A stretch of DNA of 46,394 nucleotides from positions 1 through 46,394 of the forward strand of contig CAZJID010000004.1 in NCBI GenBank assembly GCA_964545945.1, written 5' to 3'. The position numbers were made by a program, and so were the translations under genes. The DNA is from an uncultured Dehalococcoidales bacterium (GTDB lineage Bacteria; Chloroflexota; Dehalococcoidia; GIF9; UBA5629). Below the pieces are notes generated by a model, which worked only from the letters and a program-made list of their open reading frames with translations, ran no database searches and was not told the DNA's origin. Positions 9,632 to 36,088 of the stretch are shown one piece after another; position 1 is the first letter of the stretch, and each line of letters starts with the position of its first letter.

Positions 9632-12600
9632 GTGGTGTTTAGAATGTATTTATCCCGCCTTACTCATTTAATCGATAATATCCCGGCATATCGACAGCTC
9701 AAGGACGTGTTATCAGAACCTCGGAGTAGAGCCATTAAACTGGTGGCTGCAGATGCGGTTAGGCCTTTCCTTATCGCTGCCTTGCACCAGGAATTGCACC
9801 TGCCCATTTTAGTGATTACCATTCAACCTGAAGATGCAAAGCGGCTTTACGAGGAGCTACAGGTATGGTGTCCCGATTTTCCTGCTCTGCACTTCTTCCC
9901 AGAGACAGATTTTTTATTGGACGAATCAGCCTCTGATGTTACAACCAGCGCCGAGAGGCTAAAGACTCTATCGGCTCTGACTTTCTGTGGTCACAACACA
10001 GCAAGCGAACCGAGTCCGATAGTTATTAGTTCTGCTCTGGCGGCTGTTGGAAAAACTATGCCGCGGAATGAATTTCAAGCATCCTGCCATACAGTGCAAC
10101 TCGGCATAACCATCGAACCGCGACACCTATTGGCGAGATGGCAAGATATGGGATACGAATTTGAAAATGTTGTTGAGATCCCGGGAACCGTGAGCCACCG
10201 GGGAGGCATTGTCGATGTTTTTTCTCCTGATAGTGAACTTCCAGTAAGGTTGGAGTTCGTAGGCAACAGGATAGAAAGCATCAGGTTCTTTGATCCGAAG
10301 ACACAGCGGTCGTTAAAACAGGCGACATCAATAAACGTCGTCCCGGCTAAGGAAAGTCATCAAGATAAAACCGATGACACAATTATCGATTACCTCAACG
10401 GGGAAGCACTTTTTATTACGGAGGATGTCGAAGAACTCAAAATCGTGGTAGATAAGTTGTATTACGAAACTGAAGGGTTAAGCCGGACGAAACCTAAGCC
10501 GGCCAAACAGGCGGACTTGTTGGTGCTTTCTTGGTCGGAATTTGAAAAAAAATTTGAAAAGGCTCACAAACACTTAATGCTCTGTTCTTGGAATGCCGGC
10601 TACACCGATAAAACTGCTATTCAGTTACCTTTATCACCTGTGCCAAGCTTCGGAGGAAGACTCGAAGCCTTATGCAAAGGTTTGAAGCAGTTGTTACAGC
10701 AAAAACAGCGCGTCGTTGTTGTAAGTCAGCAAACAAATCGTCTGGCAGAGTTGCTGCTGGAGCAGAATATTGCAGCCAGTTCCGTTTCGCGGATAGAACA
10801 GGTGCCACCTATGCAATCGGTTACTCTGATCCACGGTTCGCTCGCTGAGGGCTGGGCCATGAAAGATGTCCTGACGTTATTCACCGATAATGAAATTTTT
10901 GGTTTTATTAAGAAGCGCCGTTTATCCGGCAGGCATCCGGTGCGCTACCATCTTTTTGTTCCTGAATTGGCGCCGGGTGAATTCGTAGTTCACATCGACC
11001 ACGGCGTCGCCAAGTTCGCCGGTATGACGAAAATAGTTACCGAGGGTATCGAACGAGAATATCTAGTTCTGGAATATGCTGCTGGCGACAGGCTCTATGT
11101 GCCTATTGACCAGGTGGATTGTGTTAGCCGCTACATTGGCGCCAGTGACCGGACGCCGACATTAAGCCGATTAGGAACTCAAGAATGGGCACGCACCAAA
11201 CAGAGAATTAAAGAGTCTGTGGCTAAGATCGCTAGTGAGCTTCTGGGCTTGTATGCTGCTAGAGAGGTAATACCCGGCTTTGCTTTTTCATCTGATACTT
11301 TGTGGCAGCAGGAACTTGAATCCTCTTTTCCTTATATGGAAACACCGGATCAACTTGAGGCAGTTGCAGCAGTGAAGGAAGATATGGAAAAGCCGAAGCC
11401 CATGGACAGGCTTGTCTGCGGAGATGTAGGTTACGGAAAGACGGAAGTGGCTCTCCGCGCAGCCTTCAAAGCGGTAATGGACGGCAAACAGGTATCCTTA
11501 CTCGTTCCAACGACTGTCCTGGCGCAGCAACATTTCATCACTTTTCGGGAAAGGTTGCAAGCCTTTCCGGTAAGGGTAGAGATGCTGAGCAGATTCCGTA
11601 CGGAAAAAGAACAGGCAGAAACAATCGACGACCTATTTTCTGGCTCCGTAGATATCTGCATCGGCACTCATCGTTTGCTGCAGAAAGATATCATGTTTAA
11701 AGACCTGGGACTTGTAATCATAGATGAAGAACAACGTTTTGGTGTTGCGCATAAGGAACACTTTAAGAAATTGAGACGCGAGGTGGATGTCCTCACTCTG
11801 AGTGCAACGCCTATTCCACGTACTCTGCATATGTCTCTTGCCGGAATTAGGGACATGAGCACAATTGAAACTCCTCCGGAAGAGCGCTTACCGATTAAGA
11901 CTTATGTCGGCGCATATGATGACGGGATGATTCGTGAGGCTGTACTGCGAGAGGTCGAACGAAACGGGCAAGTGTTTTTCGTTCACAACCGTGTTCACAG
12001 CATATCTATGGTGGCCGGTAGGTTGAACAGGTTGGTGCCTGAAGCTCGAGTGTCAGTAGCTCATGGCCAAATGCCGGAAGATGAACTAGAAAAGGTGATG
12101 GGCGAGTTTATCAGTCATAAAAGTGACATTTTAGTTACCACTACCATTGTTGAATCGGGCCTCGACATACCGAATGCCAATTCATTGATTGTGAACCAGG
12201 CGGACAAACTGGGTTTAACTCAACTTTATCAACTGCGAGGCAGGGTCGGACGCGGCAGCAGTAATGCCTATGCCTATTTCCTCTATGATAGGGGGAAGCA
12301 ATTGACGTCGGAGGCAAGGAAGCGTCTCAAGACCATTTCCGAGGCAACTGAACTGGGCGCTGGATTTGCTGTGGCCATGAAGGATCTTGAGATCCGTGGT
12401 GCCGGTAACCTGCTCGGGGTGGAACAGAGTGGTTATGTTGCTGCTGTGGGTTTCGACCTATATAGCCGGCTGTTGAGCGAGGCGGTGGAAGGGTTAAAGC
12501 AGGGTCGCCTTTTGGAGAGGAAGGGAGAAGTTGCGCCTCCTCCGGTTCCAGTGATAGATTTACCTCTTGCTGCATTTATACCGGAAGAATACGTATCCGA

Positions 12601-12997
12601 TTTGAATGCCAGGCTGGCTTTTTATCAGCGTCTGGCTGCAGTGAAAAGATTCGCAGAAATTGATGATATGGAACAGGAACTAAGTGATAGATTCGGGCCG
12701 CCTCCGGAAGAGGTTGAGAATCTTATGTATGCCGTCAGGGTAAAGCAACTGGCAACAGAGGCTACGCTGGAATCTATCACAACGGAAAAAGGACAAATAG
12801 TTCTAAATCTCAACGACGGAAGAGATTTGAGCGAGCTATCTTTGCTATCGACTGTGAAAATCGGAATAAAAGTGGGCAGCGACCGGATAAAACTTGACAT
12901 AAATATACTCGGTGACAAATGGCAAGAAGTGCTCGTGGAAGTGCTTGGCGAACTGGATAAACGGGGTACCGGATGCAAAGCGCAAACGGCGTGTTAG
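9632..12997 (+). CDS. mfd: Transcription-repair coupling factor Mfd
   Basis: 1121 aa. It has the RNAP-interacting domain ([13 protein letters not shown]), superfamily-2 helicase motifs ([36 protein letters not shown]) and the TRG motif region. An alternative ATG start is at 9644. Confidence 0.95.
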
Positions 12998-13587
12998 TTT
13001 TAACAATAGGTCACTCTACCCGGACGATGGAGGATTTTCTGGGACTATTGCAAGCAAACGAGATAGCCACAGTGGCAGACGTAAGGACCATACCTCGCTC
13101 GCGTCACAATCCTCAATTTGATGCAAGGACTCTGCCCGGTGCTTTGAATACAGCAGGTATAAAATACATTCATATGGCTGGGCTGGGTGGATTGCGCCAA
13201 TCCCGTGCTAATTCATTGAATACGGGTTGGAGGAACGCCAGTTTTCGAGGATTCGCTGATTACATGCAGACCGCTGAATTCGGTCAGAGCCTGCAATGTT
13301 TAATGAATATAATCCTAAAAGAACAAGTTGTGCTTATGTGTGCCGAAAAGCTTCCATGGCGCTGTCACCGATCTCTTATTGCCGACGCATTGCTGGTCAG
13401 GGGATTTAAAGTTGAGCATATAATCGATGCAAACGTACATTACTCGCATAACATTACTTCTTTTGCCAGTGTCTCGGGAACGATTGTAACTTATCCATCT
13501 GTCGTCAACGACAATATTTCAGGTGTACATATAGATACAAATGATAAAAAGGGATACGACTCTGGCCGTAATATCAAGGCAGCGTAA
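12973..13587 (+). CDS. DUF488 family protein
   Basis: 204 aa. The N-terminus [41 protein letters not shown] and the later CAEKLPWRCHRSLIAD are characteristic of DUF488. The start overlaps the mfd 3' end by 25 nt. Confidence 0.7.
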   Translation: MQSANGVLVLTIGHSTRTMEDFLGLLQANEIATVADVRTIPRSRHNPQFDARTLPGALNTAGIKYIHMAGLGGLRQSRANSLNTGWRNASFRGFADYMQTAEFGQSLQCLMNIILKEQVVLMCAEKLPWRCHRSLIADALLVRGFKVEHIIDANVHYSHNITSFASVSGTIVTYPSVVNDNISGVHIDTNDKKGYDSGRNIKAA

Positions 13588-19647: not shown

Positions 19648-20367
19648 ATGAGTGAATCAGTGTTTTCCGGCTTTCCTGCAAGAGCAGAGGTTACTCCTGT
19701 TCCAAATCTGTTCTTTACTGAAGTTGTGCCTCAAGTCGACAGTATCAATGAGCTTAAGGTGGTACTGCATATTTTCTGGCTGCTCAGCCGTCGGCGCGGA
19801 TATCCGCAATTTGTAACAGCTAGCGAACTGTCAGCTGACCCAATACTTGGGAGAGGTATGGAGCCAGTGGGTGCAGCCAGAAAAGAGGTGCTTTGTCAGG
19901 CGCTTAAGGAAGCCGTGGAGCATGGCATAATACTGCATGTTAGAGTGGACAGAGCCGGACAGGTTGAAGATGCTTATCTCATTAACAACGATGCCGGTAG
20001 AGATGCGATCATTAAAATAAAGCAGGGCGATTTACCGGAGCTGCCTCCGGCACCTGTCCCGAACGATATGCAAGCTGCGGTACCCAATAATATTTACAGC
20101 TTATATGAGAGCAATATCGGTATGGTTACGCAATTAATTTCGGAACAGCTCAAGGAGGCGGAGACACTGTATCCGGCGGAGTGGATAGAATCGGCTTTTA
20201 AGGAGGCTGTTGCTTTAAATAAGCGTAGCTGGAGATACATTCTTCGTATTTTGGAAAGATGGGCTACGGAAGGTAAAGATGATGGAAAGTTTGGGAGAGA
20301 TACTCAAAAAGGGAGAGACCGCGAAAAGTACGTCAAAGGCAAGTACGGACACATGGTCAAAGGATAA
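19648..20367 (+). CDS. DnaD-domain replication-initiation / helicase-loading accessory protein
   Basis: The C-terminal region YPAEWIESAFKEAVALNKRSWRYILRILERWATEG resembles the DnaD/DnaB_2 C-terminal domain, and the gene lies between dnaB and a DnaC-like ATPase. The track start is a GTG at 19618; the ATG at 19648 is preferred. Confidence 0.65.
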   Translation: MSESVFSGFPARAEVTPVPNLFFTEVVPQVDSINELKVVLHIFWLLSRRRGYPQFVTASELSADPILGRGMEPVGAARKEVLCQALKEAVEHGIILHVRVDRAGQVEDAYLINNDAGRDAIIKIKQGDLPELPPAPVPNDMQAAVPNNIYSLYESNIGMVTQLISEQLKEAETLYPAEWIESAFKEAVALNKRSWRYILRILERWATEGKDDGKFGRDTQKGRDREKYVKGKYGHMVKG

Positions 20368-21703
20368 ATCAAAAGAGGATAGTCCATCTGATTCGACTTG
20401 CCCGGTATGTAAAGGTGCTGGTTTTATCCATCCGTTATCGGCGTCAGGACAACCTGATTTCGGTCGAGTTGTTCCCTGCCGGTGCAGCCGTCAGGGATTA
20501 AAAAAGGAGAAGCTAAATCAGCTTCAGCAGTATAGCAACCTTGGCGCCTTGTCACGGCTCACGTTCGATAGCCTCTCGCCAACCGGTAGACATACCGATG
20601 CTGTGCTGCAGCAGAATTTCACGCGAGCTTACGAAGCCGCTAAAACGTTTGCCGGTGAGCCAAAGGGTTGGTTGATTTTAGTTGGCCCCAGTGGTAGTGG
20701 AAAAACACATCTTGCCTGTGCCATCGCCAGTTTCCGTTTGAACCAGGGACAGTCCGCGTTTTATATAGGTGCCGCCGATCTGCTGGACCATCTCCGCAGC
20801 GCCTTTAGCCCCAGCAGTGAAGTTGCCTACGACGAATTGTTCGAGCGAGTGAGAAATACGCCGCTTCTGATTCTGGATGACCTGACTATGACGGCTACCA
20901 CTCCTTGGGCTAAGGGCAAGCTGGAACAATTGCTGGATTATCGTTTCAATATGCGCCTACCCACGGTAATTACTACCGATACACCGATTGATGACTTTGA
21001 TGAAGGTTTGCGAGGCCATCTGGCAGATTCCGAAATATGCAGAGTATACGTAATCCGTGGAAAATCGACATTGACTCTGGAACACCTGGGCAGTATCGAC
21101 CTGGAAGCGCTGCGCCGGAAAGCCTTCGCCAATTATGATTATAAATTAGCTAACCTGTCACCTGAGGAACGCCAGAGCTTAGAACAGGCATATCGTAATG
21201 CCGTTAATTTTGCCAAATCTCCGGAGGGCTGGCTAGTTTTCATGGGTGTCAACGGCTGCGGCAAAACTCACCTGGCGGCAGCCATTGCTAACAGCCTGCG
21301 CCAAGAGGGCAAGTCAGTGCTGTTCATAGTGGTCACCGACCTTTTAGATTATTTGCGTTCCACCTTTAATCCGGAAAGCAGGGTGTCCTATGATGAGCTC
21401 TTCGAGAGAATTAAAAAAACCCCGGTCCTTATACTCGACGATTTCGGCGAGCAGTCAGCTACATCATGGGCACAGGAAAAGCTTTATCAACTGATAAACT
21501 ATCGTTATAATGCCAGGCTGGCTACGGTAATCACTACCTGTCTGTCTCTGGATGAGATTGAAAGCCGCATCAGCTCGCGCATGGTTGACCCCAGCCTCAG
21601 TCTCGTACTGAGAATTAATGCCCCTGATTATCGTGGTGATATAAAAGCCCCGAAGGCCCGCGAAACCAAATCGCAACAGCGCTATGCACGACGAAACCGT
21701 TAG
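20279..21703 (+). CDS. Tandem (duplicated) DnaC/IstB-type AAA+ ATPase with an N-terminal CxxCxGxG zinc motif
   Basis: 474 aa. Module 1 has Walker A GPSGSGKT (nt 20684-20707) and Walker B LLILDD. Module 2 has Walker A GVNGCGKT (nt 21245-21268) and Walker B VLILDD. The modules are colinear and roughly half-identical by eye. The N-terminus carries CPVCKGAG...CRC. Confidence 0.8.
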   Translation: MMESLGEILKKGETAKSTSKASTDTWSKDKSKEDSPSDSTCPVCKGAGFIHPLSASGQPDFGRVVPCRCSRQGLKKEKLNQLQQYSNLGALSRLTFDSLSPTGRHTDAVLQQNFTRAYEAAKTFAGEPKGWLILVGPSGSGKTHLACAIASFRLNQGQSAFYIGAADLLDHLRSAFSPSSEVAYDELFERVRNTPLLILDDLTMTATTPWAKGKLEQLLDYRFNMRLPTVITTDTPIDDFDEGLRGHLADSEICRVYVIRGKSTLTLEHLGSIDLEALRRKAFANYDYKLANLSPEERQSLEQAYRNAVNFAKSPEGWLVFMGVNGCGKTHLAAAIANSLRQEGKSVLFIVVTDLLDYLRSTFNPESRVSYDELFERIKKTPVLILDDFGEQSATSWAQEKLYQLINYRYNARLATVITTCLSLDEIESRISSRMVDPSLSLVLRINAPDYRGDIKAPKARETKSQQRYARRNR

Positions 21704-21722: not shown

Positions 21723-22271
21723 GTGGCTTTTCTTGCTAAAATAACCAAAATCGTTCGGGTAAGCATCGTGGTAAATTCACCGGTCTTAGTGCTTAATCAA
21801 AATTATGAGCCGCTTAACATATGCAGGGTGCGCCGGGCCATAGTTTTGCTTTTCCGCGGCAAGGCTGAGGTTCTGGAGAACGGGCGGGGAAGCCTCCACT
21901 CAATGGAAGGCGTTTTCGAAATTCCGTCTGTTATCAGGCTAGGTTATTTTATCAAGCGTCCAAGGCAGCAGCGGAAATTGACTAAGCTCGAGGTTTTTAA
22001 TCGCGACCAGTATATTTGCCAGTACTGCGGCCGTGCGGATAATGACCTGACTCTGGACCACGTCATGCCGCGGCGGCGAGGCGGCCAACACAGCTGGGAG
22101 AATGTAGTAAGCGCCTGCATACCTTGTAATCGACGTAAGGCTGGCCGAACACCATCCGAGGCCGGGATGCCGCTCTTACATCAGCCGAAGCCGCCACGCA
22201 ACGACGGTTTTTACGTGCCCTTCCAGTACCTGCGTGTCCACACCGAGTGGCAGAAGTACGTTCCTCAGTGA
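21723..22271 (+). CDS. HNH endonuclease
   Basis: 182 aa. It has the N-terminal VLVLNQNYEPLNICRVRRAIVLLFRGKAEVLE domain, then CQYCG...LTLDHVMPRRRGGQHSWENVVSACIPCNRRK (HNH with a CxxC...CxxC zinc site). The start (GTG at 21723) is uncertain. Confidence 0.8.
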   Translation: MAFLAKITKIVRVSIVVNSPVLVLNQNYEPLNICRVRRAIVLLFRGKAEVLENGRGSLHSMEGVFEIPSVIRLGYFIKRPRQQRKLTKLEVFNRDQYICQYCGRADNDLTLDHVMPRRRGGQHSWENVVSACIPCNRRKAGRTPSEAGMPLLHQPKPPRNDGFYVPFQYLRVHTEWQKYVPQ

Positions 22272-30696: not shown

Positions 30697-33264
30697 TTAG
30701 CTTATGGATATGGTTGAACCGCTGGCTGTTTTGGTCACGTTGATAAGCGTCTGGAATTTGTCCTTCATTTCTTCGAGGTGAGTAATAACGATTATCTTTT
30801 CGAAGTCGTCCTGAATGGAATTTATGGCTTCGACAAGTTTTTCCCTGGCTGAGCTATCCTGGGTACCGAAGCCTTCATCGATTATAAGAATGGGAAGTGA
30901 GGCACCGGCCCGCCGGACCAGCAGCATGGAAAGAGCAATGCGCAGGGCGAGGTCTATGCGAAAGGCTTCTCCGCCACTGTACATTTCGTAGTTTCTAGTG
31001 CCCAGTTCATCTGCTATCTTAATATCAAGTGTTTCTATGGTATCGCCTTTCCTGGTTTCCCGCTGGCTTTCGAGGCTGAGTGACATTCTGTTATCGGTCA
31101 TCTTAGCCAGCAGGCGGTTAGCCTCTATCTCAATTTCGGGAAGCGCCTGCTCGATAAGCAGGGCCTGAATACCCTTTTTGCTAAACGCTTCAGCCAGTTC
31201 TTTGTAAATGCTCTCTTCGCTTAAAGCTTCCTGTAAAAGTCCCGCTTTCTCCTTCTTTTTTGTTTCTAGGACGGCAAGCTGCCTTAGCCTTTCTTGTAAG
31301 GTTGCCAGGCTATCCCGTACCTGGCGCTCTTTATTAAGCGAAGCTTGCAGTTCTTCTTCCTGTTTGCCTAAGGCATCGATGATATCGGGAAGCGAAAGGA
31401 GTTCGGTCTTCAATTCCTCTTGCCTCTTCAGGCCAGTTGTTAGTGTTTTTTTCAAGCCGGAAAAGTTCTCTTGAGCCTCCACCAGGGCTGATTTTTCCTT
31501 GTCGACATTTTTTATGGCATCATCTAGTTCACGTTTCAGGATTTCGTATCTTTCCAGCTCTCCCAGTTGCTTTTGAATCTGCGCGTGCTTTTCTTTATTG
31601 TAGTCAAGCTTTTGCTCCTCGTTTTCTAACTCGGTTAGCATCTGCTGCTCTTGGACAGCGTAATCTTTCTTTGCCAGGCGCTGCTCAAGTTCCTCGAGTT
31701 CAGCTTTTTCCAGAGATAGCTCCTCGCCGGCCTGTCTGGCTTGGGCAAGCTCTTTTTCGATGATACTCAACTGACTGTGACTGGCAGTTCGCTCACGGTT
31801 CAGGTCCGATTCTTCTATGGTTAGTTCATTTTCCAGCACCCTCAATTTTACCTGGTCCTGGTTTAGTTCCTTGCTGTTTTTCTGTCCGGTCTTCGTTTTT
31901 TGCCGGGCTTCGGAGCTAAGCTTGACCTCTATCTGATACCGGCCGGCTGCTCCAAGCTCGGTCTCGCAGAGCGGGCAGCGCACGTCATCGCCGGCAAGCA
32001 GCTTAAGTTTCTCATTTACATCTTCAATTTCCTTGGCTAGCTGCATATTTTCAGACTCGAGATGGCTTATTCTCGATCTAATCTGCTGAATTTGTTCTCG
32101 CTTTTTAGTTACAGTTTCCTCAAACAGGGATAGTTCGAGCACATGTTTACGAGCTTCGGCCAGTGATTTTTCAAGCTCGACTGCTTTAGCAAATTTAGAT
32201 TCGTTTTCAGCAAACCTGGTTTGTATTATCTTATGTTCGATGATAAGCTCCTGGGCGGCTTTCTTAACTGCCTGGTCCAGATTGCTTATACGTTCTCTTA
32301 AAGAGAATAACCGGCTTAGTTTACTATTGAATTCTTCATTTAACTTTTTTACAGCCGTTAACTCAGAATATCTCTTCTCTATAGCTGCCCTTTCGTTTAA
32401 AATCCTCTCGTATTCTGAAATTATGGCCTGCTGCTCTCTTATTTTCGCTTGCAGGCGTTCCAGTTCCTTTTTTGTTTCATTAAGGCGAGTCTCGGTATTC
32501 GATAATTGCTCGTTTTTTATTTCTAAAGCTGTTTTCTGGCTACTGAGACTTTCGATAGTTGCCTCTTCGGATTTTCTTCTCTCTTCCAACTTGCTGATCT
32601 CGCCCTGGGTTTTCCCGATTTCATCCTCGCATTTAATCCTATCAACCAGCTGGAGTTCTATCTCGTTAATGGCATTCTCGAGCCTGTCCGCTTCTGTTCT
32701 TCGTTTTGTGGACTGCTCCTTGGCCTTGCTTTCCAATTCGTCATAGTGAGATAGACCTAGAATGTTGGCGAGAACTTCTTTGCGTTCTCCAGGACGTTTG
32801 ACGCTGAACTCGTCGGCATGTCCTTGCCGGAGGAAGGCGCTATTTTTGAATGTCTCATAATCCAGATTCAAAATGTCGGTTATCTTTTGCTGAGTTTCCT
32901 GCAGCGAATTCCCGGAAACCGATTTGAAGGCTCCGTTACCGGCTATTTGAAGTTCCAAGACGGTCTGTCCGGCGCGTGCCTTGCTTGGTTTCCTGGTGTG
33001 TTTACGCAGTATTCGGTAGTGCTGGTCGCCGGAACTGAACTCCAGTTCCACCTCCATTTCAGATTGCCCAAGGTGAATCAGGTCGTCATCAGTTCTGGCC
33101 CGTGATTTTCCCCATAGCGCCCAGGTCATAGCATCGAACACTGCGGATTTACCATTGCCGTTGTCGCCACAGAGGCAGGCAATGTGTATGCCTTCGAAAG
33201 ACAATGCTGGTACATTGTCCCGATAACACATGAAGTTTTTGAGTGCCAGTCTGACCGGAATCAT
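30697..33264 (-). CDS. Rad50/SbcC-family ATPase with coiled coil and CxxC zinc hook
   Basis: 855 aa. It has N-terminal Walker A CGDNGNGKSAVFDA, Q-loop FLRQG, a long Glu/Lys/Leu-rich coiled coil with a central CPLCETEL hook, C-terminal signature YSGGEAFR, Walker B LIIDEGFG and H-loop VITH. Confidence 0.85.
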   Translation of the reverse strand: MIPVRLALKNFMCYRDNVPALSFEGIHIACLCGDNGNGKSAVFDAMTWALWGKSRARTDDDLIHLGQSEMEVELEFSSGDQHYRILRKHTRKPSKARAGQTVLELQIAGNGAFKSVSGNSLQETQQKITDILNLDYETFKNSAFLRQGHADEFSVKRPGERKEVLANILGLSHYDELESKAKEQSTKRRTEADRLENAINEIELQLVDRIKCEDEIGKTQGEISKLEERRKSEEATIESLSSQKTALEIKNEQLSNTETRLNETKKELERLQAKIREQQAIISEYERILNERAAIEKRYSELTAVKKLNEEFNSKLSRLFSLRERISNLDQAVKKAAQELIIEHKIIQTRFAENESKFAKAVELEKSLAEARKHVLELSLFEETVTKKREQIQQIRSRISHLESENMQLAKEIEDVNEKLKLLAGDDVRCPLCETELGAAGRYQIEVKLSSEARQKTKTGQKNSKELNQDQVKLRVLENELTIEESDLNRERTASHSQLSIIEKELAQARQAGEELSLEKAELEELEQRLAKKDYAVQEQQMLTELENEEQKLDYNKEKHAQIQKQLGELERYEILKRELDDAIKNVDKEKSALVEAQENFSGLKKTLTTGLKRQEELKTELLSLPDIIDALGKQEEELQASLNKERQVRDSLATLQERLRQLAVLETKKKEKAGLLQEALSEESIYKELAEAFSKKGIQALLIEQALPEIEIEANRLLAKMTDNRMSLSLESQRETRKGDTIETLDIKIADELGTRNYEMYSGGEAFRIDLALRIALSMLLVRRAGASLPILIIDEGFGTQDSSAREKLVEAINSIQDDFEKIIVITHLEEMKDKFQTLINVTKTASGSTISIS

Positions 33265-33280
33265 TTTTCTTTACTGTTGA

Positions 33281-34045
33281 TTAGAAATCCAAGTCATCTT
33301 CTTTTGGGCCGAATTTGGCTGCCTCTTCTTTACTTGGACAAATTTCAAGGAAATCGCAGTTCCAGCAGAAGATGTTGGGTGTGGCGGGATATTCCTTCTC
33401 GCGGCATATCCTGTCTACCATGTCGATGACATAGGAAGTCGCCTGTGCCAGATCTTGCTCGCTCAGCTCGATTGTCTGCCATTTGCCGACTCCTAAGTAA
33501 AGGTAAGAAGCCTTTTTGAGCGGAGAATGCTGTTGTTTGGAAAGAATCAGAGCGTAAATATGGAGTTGGAGCTCATTTATTTCCGACGGCATCTTACCTG
33601 TCTTATAATCGATAATGTGCAGGCCGCCATCAAGTTCGCGGTCAACCCGGTCAATTCTGCCTTTTAGAATTATGGTATCTGTAAGTTCGACGCGGTGATT
33701 TTTTTCTATCATAAACGGATTGATCGACATGTCTTGATTTTGGGCAAACCAGCGCAGTTGATTGAGCGCTTTTTCTCCCCACTTTTTCTCATCATCTTTA
33801 TCATTAAAGCCCTTGCGGTTACGTCGCCATTTTTCCCGGAGCAAATTCTCCAGTTTCGGCAGGTTTCTTTCGGTAACTGGAACTACGGATAAGAAATCTT
33901 TGAGAGCCGCATGAATATGGTCGCCCATAGTGAAATATGGGCGTGCTTTTCTGTAGATGTCGCCCAGGCGGTCAATGTATTGAAATTTATACTGCCGCGG
34001 GCACTGCTTAAACATATTTAAGCTGAAGGGTGAAGCCTCAAACAT
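33281..34045 (-). CDS. Cas4/RecB-like PD-(D/E)XK nuclease with four-Cys (Fe-S type) signature
   Basis: 254 aa. It has an N-terminal Cys (FKQCPRQYKFQYI), then GDHIH, GRIDRVD, IIDYKTG (D..DxK), QLHIY, and C-terminal CWNCDFLEIC. It lies 16 nt upstream of the Rad50-like gene. Confidence 0.8.
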   Translation of the reverse strand: MFEASPFSLNMFKQCPRQYKFQYIDRLGDIYRKARPYFTMGDHIHAALKDFLSVVPVTERNLPKLENLLREKWRRNRKGFNDKDDEKKWGEKALNQLRWFAQNQDMSINPFMIEKNHRVELTDTIILKGRIDRVDRELDGGLHIIDYKTGKMPSEINELQLHIYALILSKQQHSPLKKASYLYLGVGKWQTIELSEQDLAQATSYVIDMVDRICREKEYPATPNIFCWNCDFLEICPSKEEAAKFGPKEDDLDF

Positions 34046-34145
34046 CTCTGTGTCTTTTATCGTGATTCTTCAGTTTTTTCAGGCTGGCTTTATTTTATCA
34101 CAATTGACGGCGATGACGGCCATAGGTAGAATTCTAGAGAAAGTT

Positions 34146-35477
34146 ATGTTTGAAGTCCTGACACAGAAACTGAGTAAGGTATTCAGTGTCCTTGGCAACA
34201 AGGGCAGGCTGAGCGAAAAAGACATTGAAGAAGCTTTACGAGAAATTCGGCTGGCTTTGCTCGAGGCAGACGTTAACTTCAAGGTGGTAAAAAGCTTTTT
34301 GGCTGACGTAAAAGAGAAGGCATTAACAGCCCAAGTGTTGGAAAGCCTGACTCCCGGTCAACAGATCGTAAAAATTGTCAATGAAGAACTTATAAACATA
34401 TTAGGAAAGGAACGCAATCCGCTCATCGCAGCCGGTCATCCGCCTTCAATTCTCATGCTTGTCGGCTTACAGGGTTCGGGAAAAACGACGACGGCAGCCA
34501 AGCTGGCGCTGCATTTCAAAAATGCGGGGCAGCGTCCTCTGCTGGTGGCGGCGGATACTCGACGGCCGGCGGCAATCGACCAGCTGGTAACGCTTGGCAA
34601 ACAGCTCGATGTACAGGTTTCGGCTGGTGATGAAAAGACAGCACCGCTGGCAGTTTGCCGCCGTGCTTTAAAACAGGCAAACGAGATTGCTGCTACGTGG
34701 GTTATTATCGATACTCAGGGGCGCTTGCATGTCGATGAAGAGATGATGAAGGAACTGACCAAGCTGAAGACTGAAATTAAGCCGTCGGAAGTTTTGCTGG
34801 TGGTTGATGCTATGACAGGTCAGGATGCGGTGAAAACGGCCGAAGAGTTTAATAAAAGCGTCGTTTTGACCGGACTTGTATTGACCAAGATGGACGGTGA
34901 TGCCAGGGGTGGTGCAGCGCTTTCTATTAAGTCAGTCACTGGCGTGCCGATTAAGTTCATCGGCACCGGGGAAAAAGTCAGTGCCATCGAGCCCTTTTAT
35001 CCGGACCGGATGGCCTCGCGAATTTTGGGCATGGGAGATGTACTTACCCTTATTGAAAAGGCGGAAGATGCGTTTGATAAACAGCAGGCGAAGCAGCTTG
35101 AAAAAAAACTGAGAAAAGCAGAACTAGACCTGGAGGATTTTCTCGTTCAGCTACGCCAGATTAAGAAGATGGGGTCTTTAAATCAACTGGTGGAACTGCT
35201 ACCCGGTTTTTCCAAGATATCGTCCGGTCTTCCTCAAAGCGGGAGCGAGGAGCGGTTAAAAAAAATTGAATCTATCATCTTGTCCATGACAGTGGAAGAA
35301 CGTCGTAATCCGACAATTATCGGTGGTAGCAGGCGGAGGCGTATTGCAAAGGGTAGCGGCACCTCGTCAGGTGACGTCAATCAGTTGCTCAACCAGTTTT
35401 ACCAGATGAAAAAACTGGCTAAAATGGCGGCGACAGGAAAACTTCCTAGAAATTTAATGGGTACATTCGGACGGTAA
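34146..35477 (+). CDS. ffh: Signal recognition particle protein Ffh
   Basis: MFEVLTQKLSKVF..., the GTPase motif GLQGSGKTTTAAKLA, DTRRPAA, DTQGR and TKMDGDARGG, plus a Met-rich M domain. The track ORF extends upstream to 34050, but the ATG at 34146 matches the family N-terminus. Confidence 0.95.
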   Translation: MFEVLTQKLSKVFSVLGNKGRLSEKDIEEALREIRLALLEADVNFKVVKSFLADVKEKALTAQVLESLTPGQQIVKIVNEELINILGKERNPLIAAGHPPSILMLVGLQGSGKTTTAAKLALHFKNAGQRPLLVAADTRRPAAIDQLVTLGKQLDVQVSAGDEKTAPLAVCRRALKQANEIAATWVIIDTQGRLHVDEEMMKELTKLKTEIKPSEVLLVVDAMTGQDAVKTAEEFNKSVVLTGLVLTKMDGDARGGAALSIKSVTGVPIKFIGTGEKVSAIEPFYPDRMASRILGMGDVLTLIEKAEDAFDKQQAKQLEKKLRKAELDLEDFLVQLRQIKKMGSLNQLVELLPGFSKISSGLPQSGSEERLKKIESIILSMTVEERRNPTIIGGSRRRRIAKGSGTSSGDVNQLLNQFYQMKKLAKMAATGKLPRNLMGTFGR

Positions 35478-35485
35478 CCAGTATA

Positions 35486-36088
35486 TTACTCGCCAGTTCT
35501 TGTAGTTCCGATAATAGTAAGCTGGTGGTCCGCTATCTGGACGCTGGTAACATCCAGTGGTACGCCCGCTATCTGCGAGCTCAGCAGTATATTCGCTATC
35601 TGCTCCGCTCTTGCCTTCGCTGATTGGGGCAACGGTAACTTACCTAGGTTAAACTCGTCTATTACCACTTTTGGCTTGCCGTCGGTAATCGTTATTCGTC
35701 CTATTGTTCCTGTCTTAGCGTCCATTACAGGTGCGTCGACGACGGCATAAGCTAGAAAGTTGCCATCGCCGAAATTAACGAGTACCCGTTTTAGAGGCAA
35801 CTGTCCTTCGGCGAGCATCTGCACCAACTTGGAATTGGCCTCCGACTCGGTTATTGTCAGAGTCACTTCTTTTTTCTGCCCGGCCTCCACGGCTGCTTTT
35901 ATTTGACTGTCGGCAGTGTCCAGTTTGTTATCGAAACTTTGAGCTGCGTCTGCGGTTACCGCGACCGGAACAGCTCTCGCCAAAATCGATGGAGAAAGTG
36001 AGTAAAGATAAAAGCCGGTGACGAGGAAGATAATAACCAGGATGCCTATCACACCGATGCCCATGATTATTCCTTTTATCAGTCTCAT
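35486..36088 (-). CDS. Hypothetical single-pass membrane-anchored protein (possibly DUF2140/YpmS-like)
   Basis: 200 aa with an N-terminal TM helix (IIMGIGVIGILVIIFLVTGFYLY) and a beta-rich soluble domain. It lies 34 nt downstream of rpoD. The family assignment is a weak impression only. Confidence 0.55.
   Translation of the reverse strand: MRLIKGIIMGIGVIGILVIIFLVTGFYLYSLSPSILARAVPVAVTADAAQSFDNKLDTADSQIKAAVEAGQKKEVTLTITESEANSKLVQMLAEGQLPLKRVLVNFGDGNFLAYAVVDAPVMDAKTGTIGRITITDGKPKVVIDEFNLGKLPLPQSAKARAEQIANILLSSQIAGVPLDVTSVQIADHQLTIIGTTRTGE

What the first reader, a model, noticed from the sequence alone, without database searches (positions are those of the whole stretch)
30697..34045. Cas4-like Fe-S PD-(D/E)XK nuclease operon-coupled to a Rad50/SbcC zinc-hook ATPase, with no Mre11/SbcD
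Rad50/SbcC ATPases canonically partner with an Mre11/SbcD phosphoesterase encoded next to them. Here the upstream gene, 16 nt away and in the position sbcD would normally occupy, encodes a 254-aa Cas4/AddB-type nuclease. Its motifs are an N-terminal Cys, GRIDRVD, IIDYK, QLHIY and C-terminal CWNCDFLEIC. No calcineurin-type phosphoesterase is present in the window. The ATPase looks complete: Walker A, Q-loop FLRQG, CPLCETEL hook, SGGE signature, Walker B and H-loop. The pair could be a non-canonical DNA-end-processing machine replacing SbcCD. It could instead be an SMC-plus-nuclease defence module in the manner of Lamassu-type systems. It is flanked by core genes (ffh and a CoA-transferase).
Basis: partly seen in the sequence, partly recalled or inferred. 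Interest (0 to 1): 0.7.

Follow-up and report, generated by a model that had tools for sequence, protein, structure and literature searches.

The report
Leftover half of extended SbcCD operon
A Cas4/AddB-type iron-sulfur nuclease gene sits 16 bases upstream of a Rad50/SbcC gene in a Dehalococcoidia chromosome, and relatives show that this pair is what remains of a four-gene operon, sbcD–nuclease–metallo-β-lactamase–sbcC, so the nuclease looks like an accessory to SbcCD DNA-break processing and not a proven replacement for Mre11/SbcD.

Summary
Window 33281-34045(-) encodes a 254-aa PD-(D/E)XK/Cas4-like nuclease with all catalytic residues and four Fe-S cysteines invariant. Window 30697-33264(-), 16 nt downstream, encodes a complete 855-aa Rad50/SbcC ATPase. 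No calcineurin-type phosphoesterase was found in the window.

- The SbcC is a vertically inherited core gene of Dehalococcoidales. In 46 of 63 informative species it has no adjacent nuclease.
- It is orthologous (47% identity, same length) to SbcCs that are co-operonic with a genuine sbcD.
- In a sister clade the same nuclease subfamily lies between sbcD and sbcC, as sbcD–nuc–MBL–sbcC or sbcD–nuc–sbcC.
- Decayed MBL remnants survive in the nuc–sbcC spacer of the window's own clade.
- One relative keeps sbcD alone at the ancestral proS locus, so an unlinked sbcD is plausible here, though I could not test it.
- The nuclease–SbcC link is specific to this subfamily: 47 of 55 loci at 60% identity or more, 0 of 12 at 52% or less. 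It is also facultative, since each gene occurs without the other.

The Lamassu-type defence reading is not supported. My best reading is an accessory end-resection nuclease of a Dehalococcoidia-specific extended SbcCD module, which is a new variant of a known kind.

The parts
33281..34045 (-). 254-aa Fe-S RecB-family (PDDEXK_1 / Cas4-AddB-AdnAB-like) nuclease. Features: C15; GRIDRVD 129-135; IIDYK 144-148; QLHIY 160-164; C227-x2-C230-x5-C236; conserved acidic C-terminal tail EDDLDF.
   Evidence: motifs invariant. AlphaFold2 model has mean pLDDT 79. Foldseek top hits are ACE1 (9iab), AdnAB nuclease domains, AddAB, Dna2, Cas4, MGME1 and EXO5.
33265..33280 (-). 16-nt spacer between the nuclease stop and the sbcC start, with no terminator-like site. 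Close relatives keep a 15-16 nt spacer; deeper relatives have 332-342 nt spacers that contain decayed MBL-gene remnants.
30697..33264 (-). 855-aa Rad50/SbcC-family ABC ATPase with a CPLC zinc hook (430-433) and complete ATPase motifs. It is orthologous to SbcCs that sit in operons with sbcD in other Dehalococcoidia.
34046..34145 (.). Divergent intergenic region between the nuclease gene and ffh. The likely ffh start is M33 of the listed ORF, at 34146. A sigma-70-like site for ffh lies at 34104-34132 (+); no consensus promoter was found for the nuclease-sbcC strand.
   Evidence: (Ffh homologues align from residue 32-33)

Best explanation
The pair is the nuc–sbcC remnant of a Dehalococcoidia-specific extended SbcCD operon (sbcD – Cas4/AddB-like Fe-S nuclease – RNase J/β-CASP-like metallo-β-lactamase – sbcC). 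In the window's lineage it sits next to ffh and is no longer linked to sbcD.

Proposed mechanism (inferred, not shown). The SbcC dimer, zinc-hook-linked and ATP-driven, recognises DNA ends, hairpins or blocked ends, most probably still together with an SbcD encoded elsewhere in the genome. The co-transcribed Fe-S RecB-family nuclease then degrades the 5' strand or trims single-stranded tails, as its structural relatives AdnAB, AddB, Dna2, Cas4 and EXO5 do, to give a 3' tail for RecA. This would make it a helicase-less counterpart of NurA in the archaeal mre11-rad50-herA-nurA operon, or of AddAB, which to my recollection is encoded just upstream of sbcDC in Bacillus subtilis.

Shown: gene identities, motif integrity, the operon architectures in relatives, subfamily-specific linkage, and vertical inheritance. 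Inferred: physical or functional cooperation, nuclease polarity, and the presence of sbcD elsewhere in this genome.
For: (1) Identity and integrity of both genes.
(2) Linkage specific to the subfamily. Of nuclease loci at 66% identity or more, 37 have SbcC downstream and 8 do not. At 60-65% identity, 10 of 10 informative loci have it. At 52% or less, 0 of 12 do.
(3) The same nuclease is embedded in sbcD–nuc–MBL–sbcC (L137, 139, 140, 141, 143) or sbcD–nuc–sbcC (L142, L144), in a different chromosomal context (before rpsO-pnp-dapB-asd). The sbcD stop overlaps the nuclease start by 8 nt.
(4) Intermediates link the two clades. L124 is ffh|nuc|MBL(frameshifted)|sbcC855. MBL remnants lie in the nuc–sbcC spacers of L146 (E 5e-22) and of L016, L132 and L018 (E 4e-5 to 3e-3).
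(5) The window SbcC is 47% identical over its full 855 aa to the sbcD-linked SbcC of L170. sbcD-linked SbcCs nest among the ffh-linked ones in the tree.
(6) The coiled-coil base, where Mre11/SbcD binds Rad50 in solved complexes, is as conserved in nuc-linked and solo SbcCs as in sbcD-linked ones.
(7) An intact sbcD without an adjacent sbcC sits at the proS locus in L171.
(8) HerA and NurA genes lie about 1-4.7 kb downstream of the orthologous sbcC in L005/L019.
(9) The context is core genes and inheritance is vertical: rho between Ffh and SbcC identity is 0.82, n=44.
Against: The link is facultative. 46 of 63 informative SbcC loci have neither the nuclease nor the MBL gene upstream. L014 and L017, inside the nuclease-bearing clade, have lost it. 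Eight loci, plus L001, keep the nuclease beside ffh with no SbcC. Several loci show a fragmented sbcC behind an intact nuclease (L109, L122, L128), so the nuclease must have an SbcC-independent role.

Unrelated genes (GT87, TM2) can also occupy the slot between sbcD and sbcC, so position in that slot is not proof of function. The conserved acidic C-terminal tail of the nuclease is also present in copies without SbcC. No interaction prediction or biochemistry was possible, and sbcD in this genome is unverified.
Confidence: 0.55

Rival explanations
1. True replacement. The window's lineage has lost sbcD, and the Cas4-like Fe-S nuclease (elsewhere the MBL enzyme) is now the only nuclease partner of Rad50/SbcC. 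That would be a Rad50 machine without Mre11.
For: No Metallophos/SbcD in the 46-kb window, nor within about 10 kb of sbcC in 80 related species, 1.11 Mb in total. No SbcD hit in the top 120 lies on a contig whose length matches a known contig of this clade. The 15-16 nt spacing is kept across close relatives.
Against: Most orthologous SbcCs in the same clade have no adjacent nuclease at all and are still fully conserved, which implies a partner encoded elsewhere. The SbcD-binding coiled-coil base shows no relaxation. Ancestrally the nuclease coexisted with sbcD in one operon. An unlinked but intact sbcD is seen in L171. The SbcD hit list was cut off at about 59% identity, so absence from it says little.
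Confidence: 0.15
2. Neighbours without cooperation. The nuclease is an independent 'solo-Cas4'-type housekeeping repair nuclease, and the slot upstream of sbcC simply tolerates insertions. The 16-nt spacing reflects co-transcription only.
For: Each gene is frequently retained without the other. Unrelated genes (GT87, TM2/DZR, cupin, FMN reductase) occupy the same slot in other species. Solo-Cas4 is reported as vertically inherited in many Chloroflexi with unknown function (PMC5704561). The C-terminal tail is conserved regardless of SbcC.
Against: Linkage survives a change of chromosomal context and about 40% SbcC divergence. It is confined to one nuclease subfamily (47 of 55 loci against 0 of 12). 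Both recurrent occupants of the slot are nucleases with folds that act on nucleic-acid ends. Nuclease and SbcC divergence are correlated (rho 0.85, n=31), although shared phylogeny contributes to that.
Confidence: 0.22
3. An anti-phage SMC-plus-nuclease defence module of the Lamassu, Gabija or PARIS type.
For: Weak PADLOC hits: LmuB 84.5 bits, mad3, PbeC, and Cas4/Aga_Cas4-like_Nuc for the nuclease. The closest structural match of the nuclease is the Argonaute-associated Cas4 ACE1.
Against: The sbcc/Rad50 models score far higher (285 and 150 bits). There is no LmuA or LmuC, no Argonaute, and no CRISPR array or cas genes. The core-gene neighbourhood is conserved across species. Inheritance is vertical. 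GC content is uniform. Orthologues are co-operonic with sbcD.
Confidence: 0.04

Closest known systems
Bacterial SbcCD / archaeal-eukaryotic Mre11-Rad50
   Same: The 855-aa protein has every Rad50/SbcC hallmark: ABC ATPase motifs, a CxxC zinc hook and long coiled coils. Its best PDB sequence matches are M. jannaschii, T. maritima and P. furiosus Rad50 and E. coli SbcC. Orthologues sit in sbcD-containing operons.
   Different: In the window and in 80 related species no sbcD is adjacent. The operon in relatives carries one or two extra nuclease genes between sbcD and sbcC. The protein scores below the TIGR00618 and Rad50 equivalog cutoffs and is shorter than E. coli SbcC (855 against 1048 aa).
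Archaeal mre11-rad50-herA-nurA operon
   Same: Here too the Mre11/Rad50 genes are co-encoded with a dedicated 5'-3' resection nuclease. HerA and NurA homologues lie about 1-4.7 kb from the orthologous sbcC in L005/L019.
   Different: The extra nucleases here have PD-(D/E)XK Fe-S and MBL/β-CASP folds, not the NurA fold. No helicase is encoded in the module. No HerA or NurA was found in the window.
AddAB / AdnAB helicase-nucleases
   Same: The nuclease shares the Fe-S RecB-family nuclease fold of AddB and AdnA/AdnB (TM-score normalised to the query 0.65-0.68). In B. subtilis, addBA lies directly upstream of sbcDC; this is from my own knowledge and was not tested here.
   Different: It is a stand-alone 254-aa domain with no UvrD-like helicase module, and no helicase gene is adjacent.
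Solo-Cas4 of Chloroflexi (Hudaiberdiev et al. 2017, PMC5704561) and ACE1 (Argonaute-associated Cas4, PDB 9iab)
   Same: Same Cas4-family fold and four-cysteine cluster. It is not associated with CRISPR, is vertically inherited, and occurs in a small-genome environmental lineage.
   Different: It scores better on PDDEXK_1 than on the Cas4 models and falls below the TIGR00372 cutoff (50 bits against 65). Its linkage is to sbcD/sbcC, not to Argonaute or cas1/cas2. I found no report of this linkage in the four literature searches aimed at it.
Lamassu (LmuA-LmuB-LmuC)
   Same: It pairs an SMC/Rad50-like ATPase with a nuclease gene. Lamassu is proposed to derive from SbcCD (PMC12663957).
   Different: There is no LmuA C-terminal domain and no LmuC. 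The gene is core and vertically inherited, and the coiled coil and ATPase motifs are full-length and canonical.

Membership tests
Rad50/SbcC ATPase | Walker A, Q-loop, ABC signature, Walker B/D-loop and H-loop split between the N- and C-terminal head halves | tested here: met
   The motifs are read directly from the translation, and their core residues are invariant in 9 orthologues. AAA_23 scores E 1.2e-23.
Rad50/SbcC ATPase | Central CxxC zinc hook within a long coiled coil | tested here: met
   CPLC 430-433 is invariant. The Rad50_zn_hook model scores 18.5 bits on the window protein, below the 24.3-bit cutoff, but 30.5 bits on the L137 orthologue.
Rad50/SbcC ATPase | Curated family score threshold (TIGR00618 sbcc; NCBIfam Rad50 equivalogs) | tested here: not met
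   284.8 bits against a cutoff of 478.5. Rad50 models score 116-150 bits against cutoffs of 700 or more. It is a divergent member of the superfamily.
Rad50/SbcC ATPase | Adjacent Mre11/SbcD phosphoesterase gene | tested here: not met
   Absent from the window and from 80 orthologous loci. Present in more distant orthologues L137-L144, L168-L170, L172 and L173. Whether it lies elsewhere in this genome cannot be tested with these tools.
Cas4 (CRISPR adaptation nuclease) | RecB motifs plus a C…CxxCx5C Fe-S cluster | tested here: met
   D132, D146, K148, Q160 and Y164, and C15, C227, C230 and C236, are all invariant.
Cas4 (CRISPR adaptation nuclease) | Association with cas1/cas2 and a CRISPR array; TIGR00372 cutoff | tested here: not met
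   There are no cas genes or arrays in the window. TIGR00372 scores 50 bits against a cutoff of 65.
PDDEXK_1 (AddB/RecB-type nuclease domain, PF12705) | Full-length match above the gathering score | tested here: met
   121.9 bits against a cutoff of 22, covering profile positions 2-247 of 247. The fold is confirmed by Foldseek matches to AdnAB, AddAB and Dna2.
Lamassu | LmuB together with LmuA (an effector with the LmuA C-terminal domain) and LmuC | tested here: not met
   Only weak LmuB hits (84.5 bits), and no LmuA or LmuC model matched the nuclease. The neighbours are ffh and a CoA-transferase.
Lamassu | Patchy, horizontally mobile distribution, typically in defence islands | tested here: not met
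   The core neighbourhood is conserved in relatives. Identity tracks Ffh (rho 0.82). GC content is uniform.
Extended SbcCD operon (sbcD–nuc–MBL–sbcC) proposed here | All four genes co-linear | tested here: not met
   The window has only nuc–sbcC. The full set is seen in L137, L139, L140, L141 and L143. The intermediates are L124 and the MBL remnants.

The most novel reading that the evidence does not exclude
In this Dehalococcoidales lineage sbcD has really been lost, and Rad50/SbcC works with a non-Mre11 nuclease (the Cas4/AddB-type Fe-S enzyme here, an RNase J/β-CASP-type MBL enzyme in sister lineages). This would be the first natural Rad50 end-processing machine in which the Mre11 phosphoesterase has been exchanged for a different nuclease fold.
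Probability: 0.15. Interest if true: 0.8.

Novelty: new variant of a known kind. Interest (0 to 1): 0.5.

Why it matters
Solo Cas4-family nucleases are common in small-genome environmental bacteria, Chloroflexi included, and have no assigned function (PMC5704561). Finding one subfamily embedded in the sbcD–sbcC operon gives a concrete, testable role: an accessory nuclease for SbcCD in processing DNA ends. It points to a helicase-less route to end resection in a class of bacteria with streamlined genomes, comparable to Mre11-Rad50-HerA-NurA in archaea. The series of operon states also forms a natural experiment on which partners Rad50/SbcC needs: the full four-gene operon, then loss of MBL, loss of the nuclease, loss of sbcC, and an unlinked sbcD. 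If sbcD proved to be truly absent from the ffh-linked lineages, that would challenge the view that Rad50 always works with Mre11.

Tried and rejected
(1) Lamassu or other defence system. Rejected because the HMM scores are low compared with sbcc, there is no LmuA or LmuC, the genes are in core synteny, and inheritance is vertical.

(2) CRISPR-associated Cas4. Rejected because there is no array and no cas gene, and the protein scores below the TIGR00372 cutoff.

(3) Finding sbcD of the window's clade.
- tblastn with Dehalococcoidia and E. coli SbcD against the window and 170 loci gave hits only in the sister clade.
- A protein search with the L137 SbcD lists only the best 120 hits (59% identity or more), and none lies on a contig length known for the ffh-linked clade.
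- Seven look-ups of SbcD-bearing contigs gave new architectures, but none came from an assembly that also holds an ffh-linked SbcC in my sample.
- The question stays open.

I checked and they are unrelated sequences.

(5) Five literature searches, four of them aimed at a Cas4-like, RecB-like or β-CASP gene linked to sbcCD or Rad50, returned nothing describing it. PMC1189080 mentions Dehalococcoides and SbcC only in unrelated passages.

(7) An Rfam scan and a tandem-repeat scan of the window found nothing relevant.
Full report
**Observation**

The window carries two co-directional minus-strand ORFs exactly as described. One encodes a 254-aa protein (33281-34045) and the other an 855-aa protein (30697-33264). 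They are separated by 16 nt (TCAACAGTAAAGAAAA), and no terminator-like site lies between them on the coding strand.

The 254-aa protein matches PF12705 PDDEXK_1 end to end (E 5.4e-35) and PF01930 Cas_Cas4 (E 1.1e-9). It scores below the cutoffs of the Cas4 and AddB equivalog models. In 45 homologues the RecB catalytic residues (D132, D135, D146, K148, Q160, Y164) and four cysteines (C15, C227, C230, C236) are invariant.

An AlphaFold2 model (mean pLDDT 79; confidence is low only around the cofactor-less Cys loop) was compared with the PDB. The best matches are:
- the Argonaute-associated Cas4 ACE1 (9iab);
- the nuclease domains of mycobacterial AdnAB (TM-score normalised to the query about 0.65-0.68);
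- then AddAB, Dna2, Cas4, MGME1 and EXO5.

All of these belong to the Fe-S/RecB-like clan of nucleases that process DNA ends.

The 855-aa protein has all Rad50/SbcC motifs and an invariant CPLC hook. Its best family hit is TIGR00618 sbcc (E 1.4e-84, below cutoff), and its closest solved relatives are archaeal and Thermotoga Rad50 and E. coli SbcC.

Pfam scans of the 36 further ORFs of 150 aa or more (all but a shadow ORF inside sbcC) show a core chromosomal region of a Dehalococcoidia bacterium: mfd, nusB, rplI, dnaB, holB, PFOR, CoA-transferase, ffh, rpoD, dnaG, ppdK. No calcineurin-type phosphoesterase, cas gene or CRISPR array was found.

**How the SbcC gene behaves in relatives**

A scan of one genome per GTDB species found 432 species with a relative. 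The 80 best are all full-length orthologues of about 855 aa from Dehalococcoidia/Dehalococcoidales.

| Gene directly upstream of sbcC, same strand | Species |
|---|---|
| Cas4-like nuclease (spacer 15-16 nt in seven, 37-339 nt in three) | 10 |
| 520-540-aa metallo-β-lactamase with an RMMBL motif (closest solved: EF2904 and RNase J) | 7 |
| Neither (sbcC beside ffh, rpoD or unrelated genes) | 46 |
| Contig too short to tell | 17 |

No SbcD homologue occurs anywhere in these 1.11 Mb.

SbcC identity to the window tracks Ffh identity (Spearman 0.82, n=44), and the dnaG-rpoD-x-ffh neighbourhood is conserved. This is a vertically inherited housekeeping gene, not a mobile defence gene. On a neighbour-joining tree the nuclease-linked SbcCs form one clade, within which L014 and L017 have lost the nuclease.

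**How the nuclease gene behaves in relatives**

A metagenome scan anchored on the nuclease gave 80 loci.

| Nuclease identity to the window | SbcC directly downstream | No SbcC despite 1.5 kb or more of sequence | Other features |
|---|---|---|---|
| 66% or more | 37 | 8 (the nuclease stays next to ffh, as in L001) | Some loci carry a fragmented sbcC |
| 60-65% | 10 of 10 informative | 0 | A 411-429-aa ORF upstream in 10; MBL gene in 6 |
| 52% or less | 0 of 12 | 12 | Unrelated neighbours |

The loci at 60-65% identity lie in a different chromosomal context and form tight operons. The 411-429-aa upstream ORF ends 8 nt inside the nuclease gene. Next comes the nuclease, then in most loci the MBL gene, then a 708-713-aa SbcC, followed by rpsO-pnp-dapB-asd. 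That upstream ORF is a calcineurin-like phosphoesterase (PF00149, E 5.5e-15). It is 28% identical to E. coli SbcD (E 4e-21), and its database relatives are annotated as SbcD.

So in these relatives the Cas4-like nuclease lies between a genuine sbcD and sbcC. The linkage between nuclease and sbcC is therefore subfamily-specific and has survived both a change of genomic context and about 60% SbcC sequence divergence. It is still not obligatory for either gene.

**Connecting the two clades**

L124 has ffh|nuc|MBL(frameshifted)|sbcC855. The longer nuc–sbcC spacers in the window's clade contain decayed MBL coding sequence: L146 at E 5e-22, and L016, L132 and L018 at 4e-5 to 3e-3 against a tiny database.

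Look-ups anchored on SbcD show further states:

| State | Loci |
|---|---|
| Canonical sbcD–sbcC | L172 |
| sbcD–MBL–sbcC855 at a proS locus | L170, L173 |
| sbcD–(TM2 or GT87 gene)–sbcC708 | L168, L169, L174 |
| Intact sbcD alone at the proS locus, no sbcC within 4 kb | L171 |

The window SbcC is 47% identical over its whole length to the sbcD-linked SbcC of L170, the same level as to most ffh-linked orthologues. sbcD-linked SbcCs nest among the ffh-linked ones in the tree. The coiled-coil base, which in solved Mre11-Rad50 complexes binds the Mre11 C-terminal domain (established knowledge), is as conserved in nuc-linked and solo SbcCs as in sbcD-linked ones.

The most economical history is an ancestral sbcD–nuc–MBL–sbcC operon whose nuc–MBL–sbcC part came to lie beside ffh. 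MBL, the nuclease or sbcC were then lost repeatedly, and sbcD was left unlinked.

**Mechanism**

The following is shown:
- both proteins are intact;
- they belong to the Rad50/SbcC family and to the Fe-S RecB-nuclease family;
- they are very probably co-transcribed;
- their genes are linked non-randomly, ancestrally inside an sbcDC operon.

The following is inferred. SbcC, probably still working with SbcD, recognises and opens DNA ends or hairpins. The Fe-S nuclease then trims or resects a single strand, most probably 5'-3' as in AdnAB, AddB, Dna2 and Cas4. This would give streamlined Dehalococcoidia a helicase-less end-resection module, with the RNase J/β-CASP-like enzyme as a second, exchangeable nuclease.

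The analogy is with the archaeal mre11-rad50-herA-nurA operon and with the addBA-sbcDC gene order of B. subtilis (the latter from my own knowledge). HerA and NurA homologues do lie about 1-4.7 kb from the orthologous sbcC in L005/L019. I give this explanation a confidence of 0.55.

**Rival explanations**

- True replacement of SbcD by the nuclease (0.15). It is compatible with the absence of any adjacent sbcD. It is weakened by the many fully conserved solo SbcCs, the unrelaxed SbcD-binding region, the ancestral coexistence with sbcD, and the unlinked sbcD in L171.
- Mere neighbours (0.22). It is supported by frequent independent loss and by unrelated genes occupying the same slot. It is weakened by the subfamily-specific, context-independent linkage and by the fact that both recurrent occupants are nucleases.
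- Lamassu-like defence (0.04). It rests only on weak LmuB and Cas4 HMM hits and is contradicted by everything else.

**Novelty and verdict**

None of the four literature searches aimed at it found a description of a Cas4-family or β-CASP gene inside sbcDC operons. Hudaiberdiev et al. (PMC5704561) noted monophyletic solo-Cas4 in many Chloroflexi with unknown function.

The components are known families and the logic is familiar: a resection nuclease co-encoded with Mre11/Rad50-type genes. I therefore rate this a new variant of a known kind, with interest 0.5. The underlying association is real and gives a testable function to an orphan nuclease family.

Noticed in passing
window 33281-33298 (the C-terminus of the nuclease); also L001-L167 homologues: The nuclease ends in a conserved acidic-aromatic tail, E-[DE]-[DE]-L-D-F. 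Distant homologues end in DDLPF or EPVDF. It resembles the SSB C-terminal tip (DDDIPF). It is conserved whether or not sbcC is adjacent, so it may be a docking motif for SSB or another partner.
   Followed up: partly
L005/L019 (L005:11714-15238) and L075:1175-3378: HerA (DUF87) and NurA genes, with a 201-aa gene between them, lie about 1-4.7 kb downstream of the orthologous sbcC in one Dehalococcoidia lineage. This echoes the archaeal mre11-rad50-herA-nurA clustering. No such genes occur in the window.
   Followed up: partly
L137:10781-12373, L005:6390-7979, L170:8571-10151, L173:9190-10821: A 520-545-aa metallo-β-lactamase with an RMMBL motif sits immediately upstream of sbcC in many Dehalococcoidia, with or without sbcD and the Cas4-like nuclease. 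Its closest solved relatives are EF2904 (2az4) and RNase J. It is an uncharacterised candidate SbcC-associated nuclease.
   Followed up: partly
L168:6892-7998, L174:6991-7998: An RmuC gene, a predicted PD-(D/E)XK nuclease implicated in limiting inversions at inverted repeats, ends 2 nt before sbcD in some Dehalococcoidia. This is another nuclease coupled to the sbcDC locus.
   Followed up: no
window 20279-21703 (+) and 21723-22271 (+): A 474-aa protein with two tandem AAA+ modules (nSTAND3/AAA_16-like, then IstB/DnaC/DnaA-like) follows dnaB and a DnaD/DnaB_2-domain gene. A 182-aa HNH endonuclease gene comes immediately after it. This is an unusual arrangement for a helicase-loader region.
   Followed up: no
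window 12973-13587 (+): A DUF488 gene overlaps the 3' end of mfd (9632-12997) by 25 nt, which suggests translational coupling of a DUF488 protein to the transcription-repair coupling factor.
   Followed up: no
window 35486-36088 (-): A 200-aa ORF with no Pfam hit and a hydrophobic N-terminus lies between rpoD and ffh. It is conserved in position and length (200-207 aa) across Dehalococcoidia relatives (L001, L002, L004, L005).
   Followed up: no
L109, L122, L128, L143: sbcC appears split into two or three ORFs behind an intact nuclease gene in several metagenome contigs. These are either genuine pseudogenisation of sbcC or assembly frameshifts; I did not distinguish between them.
   Followed up: no
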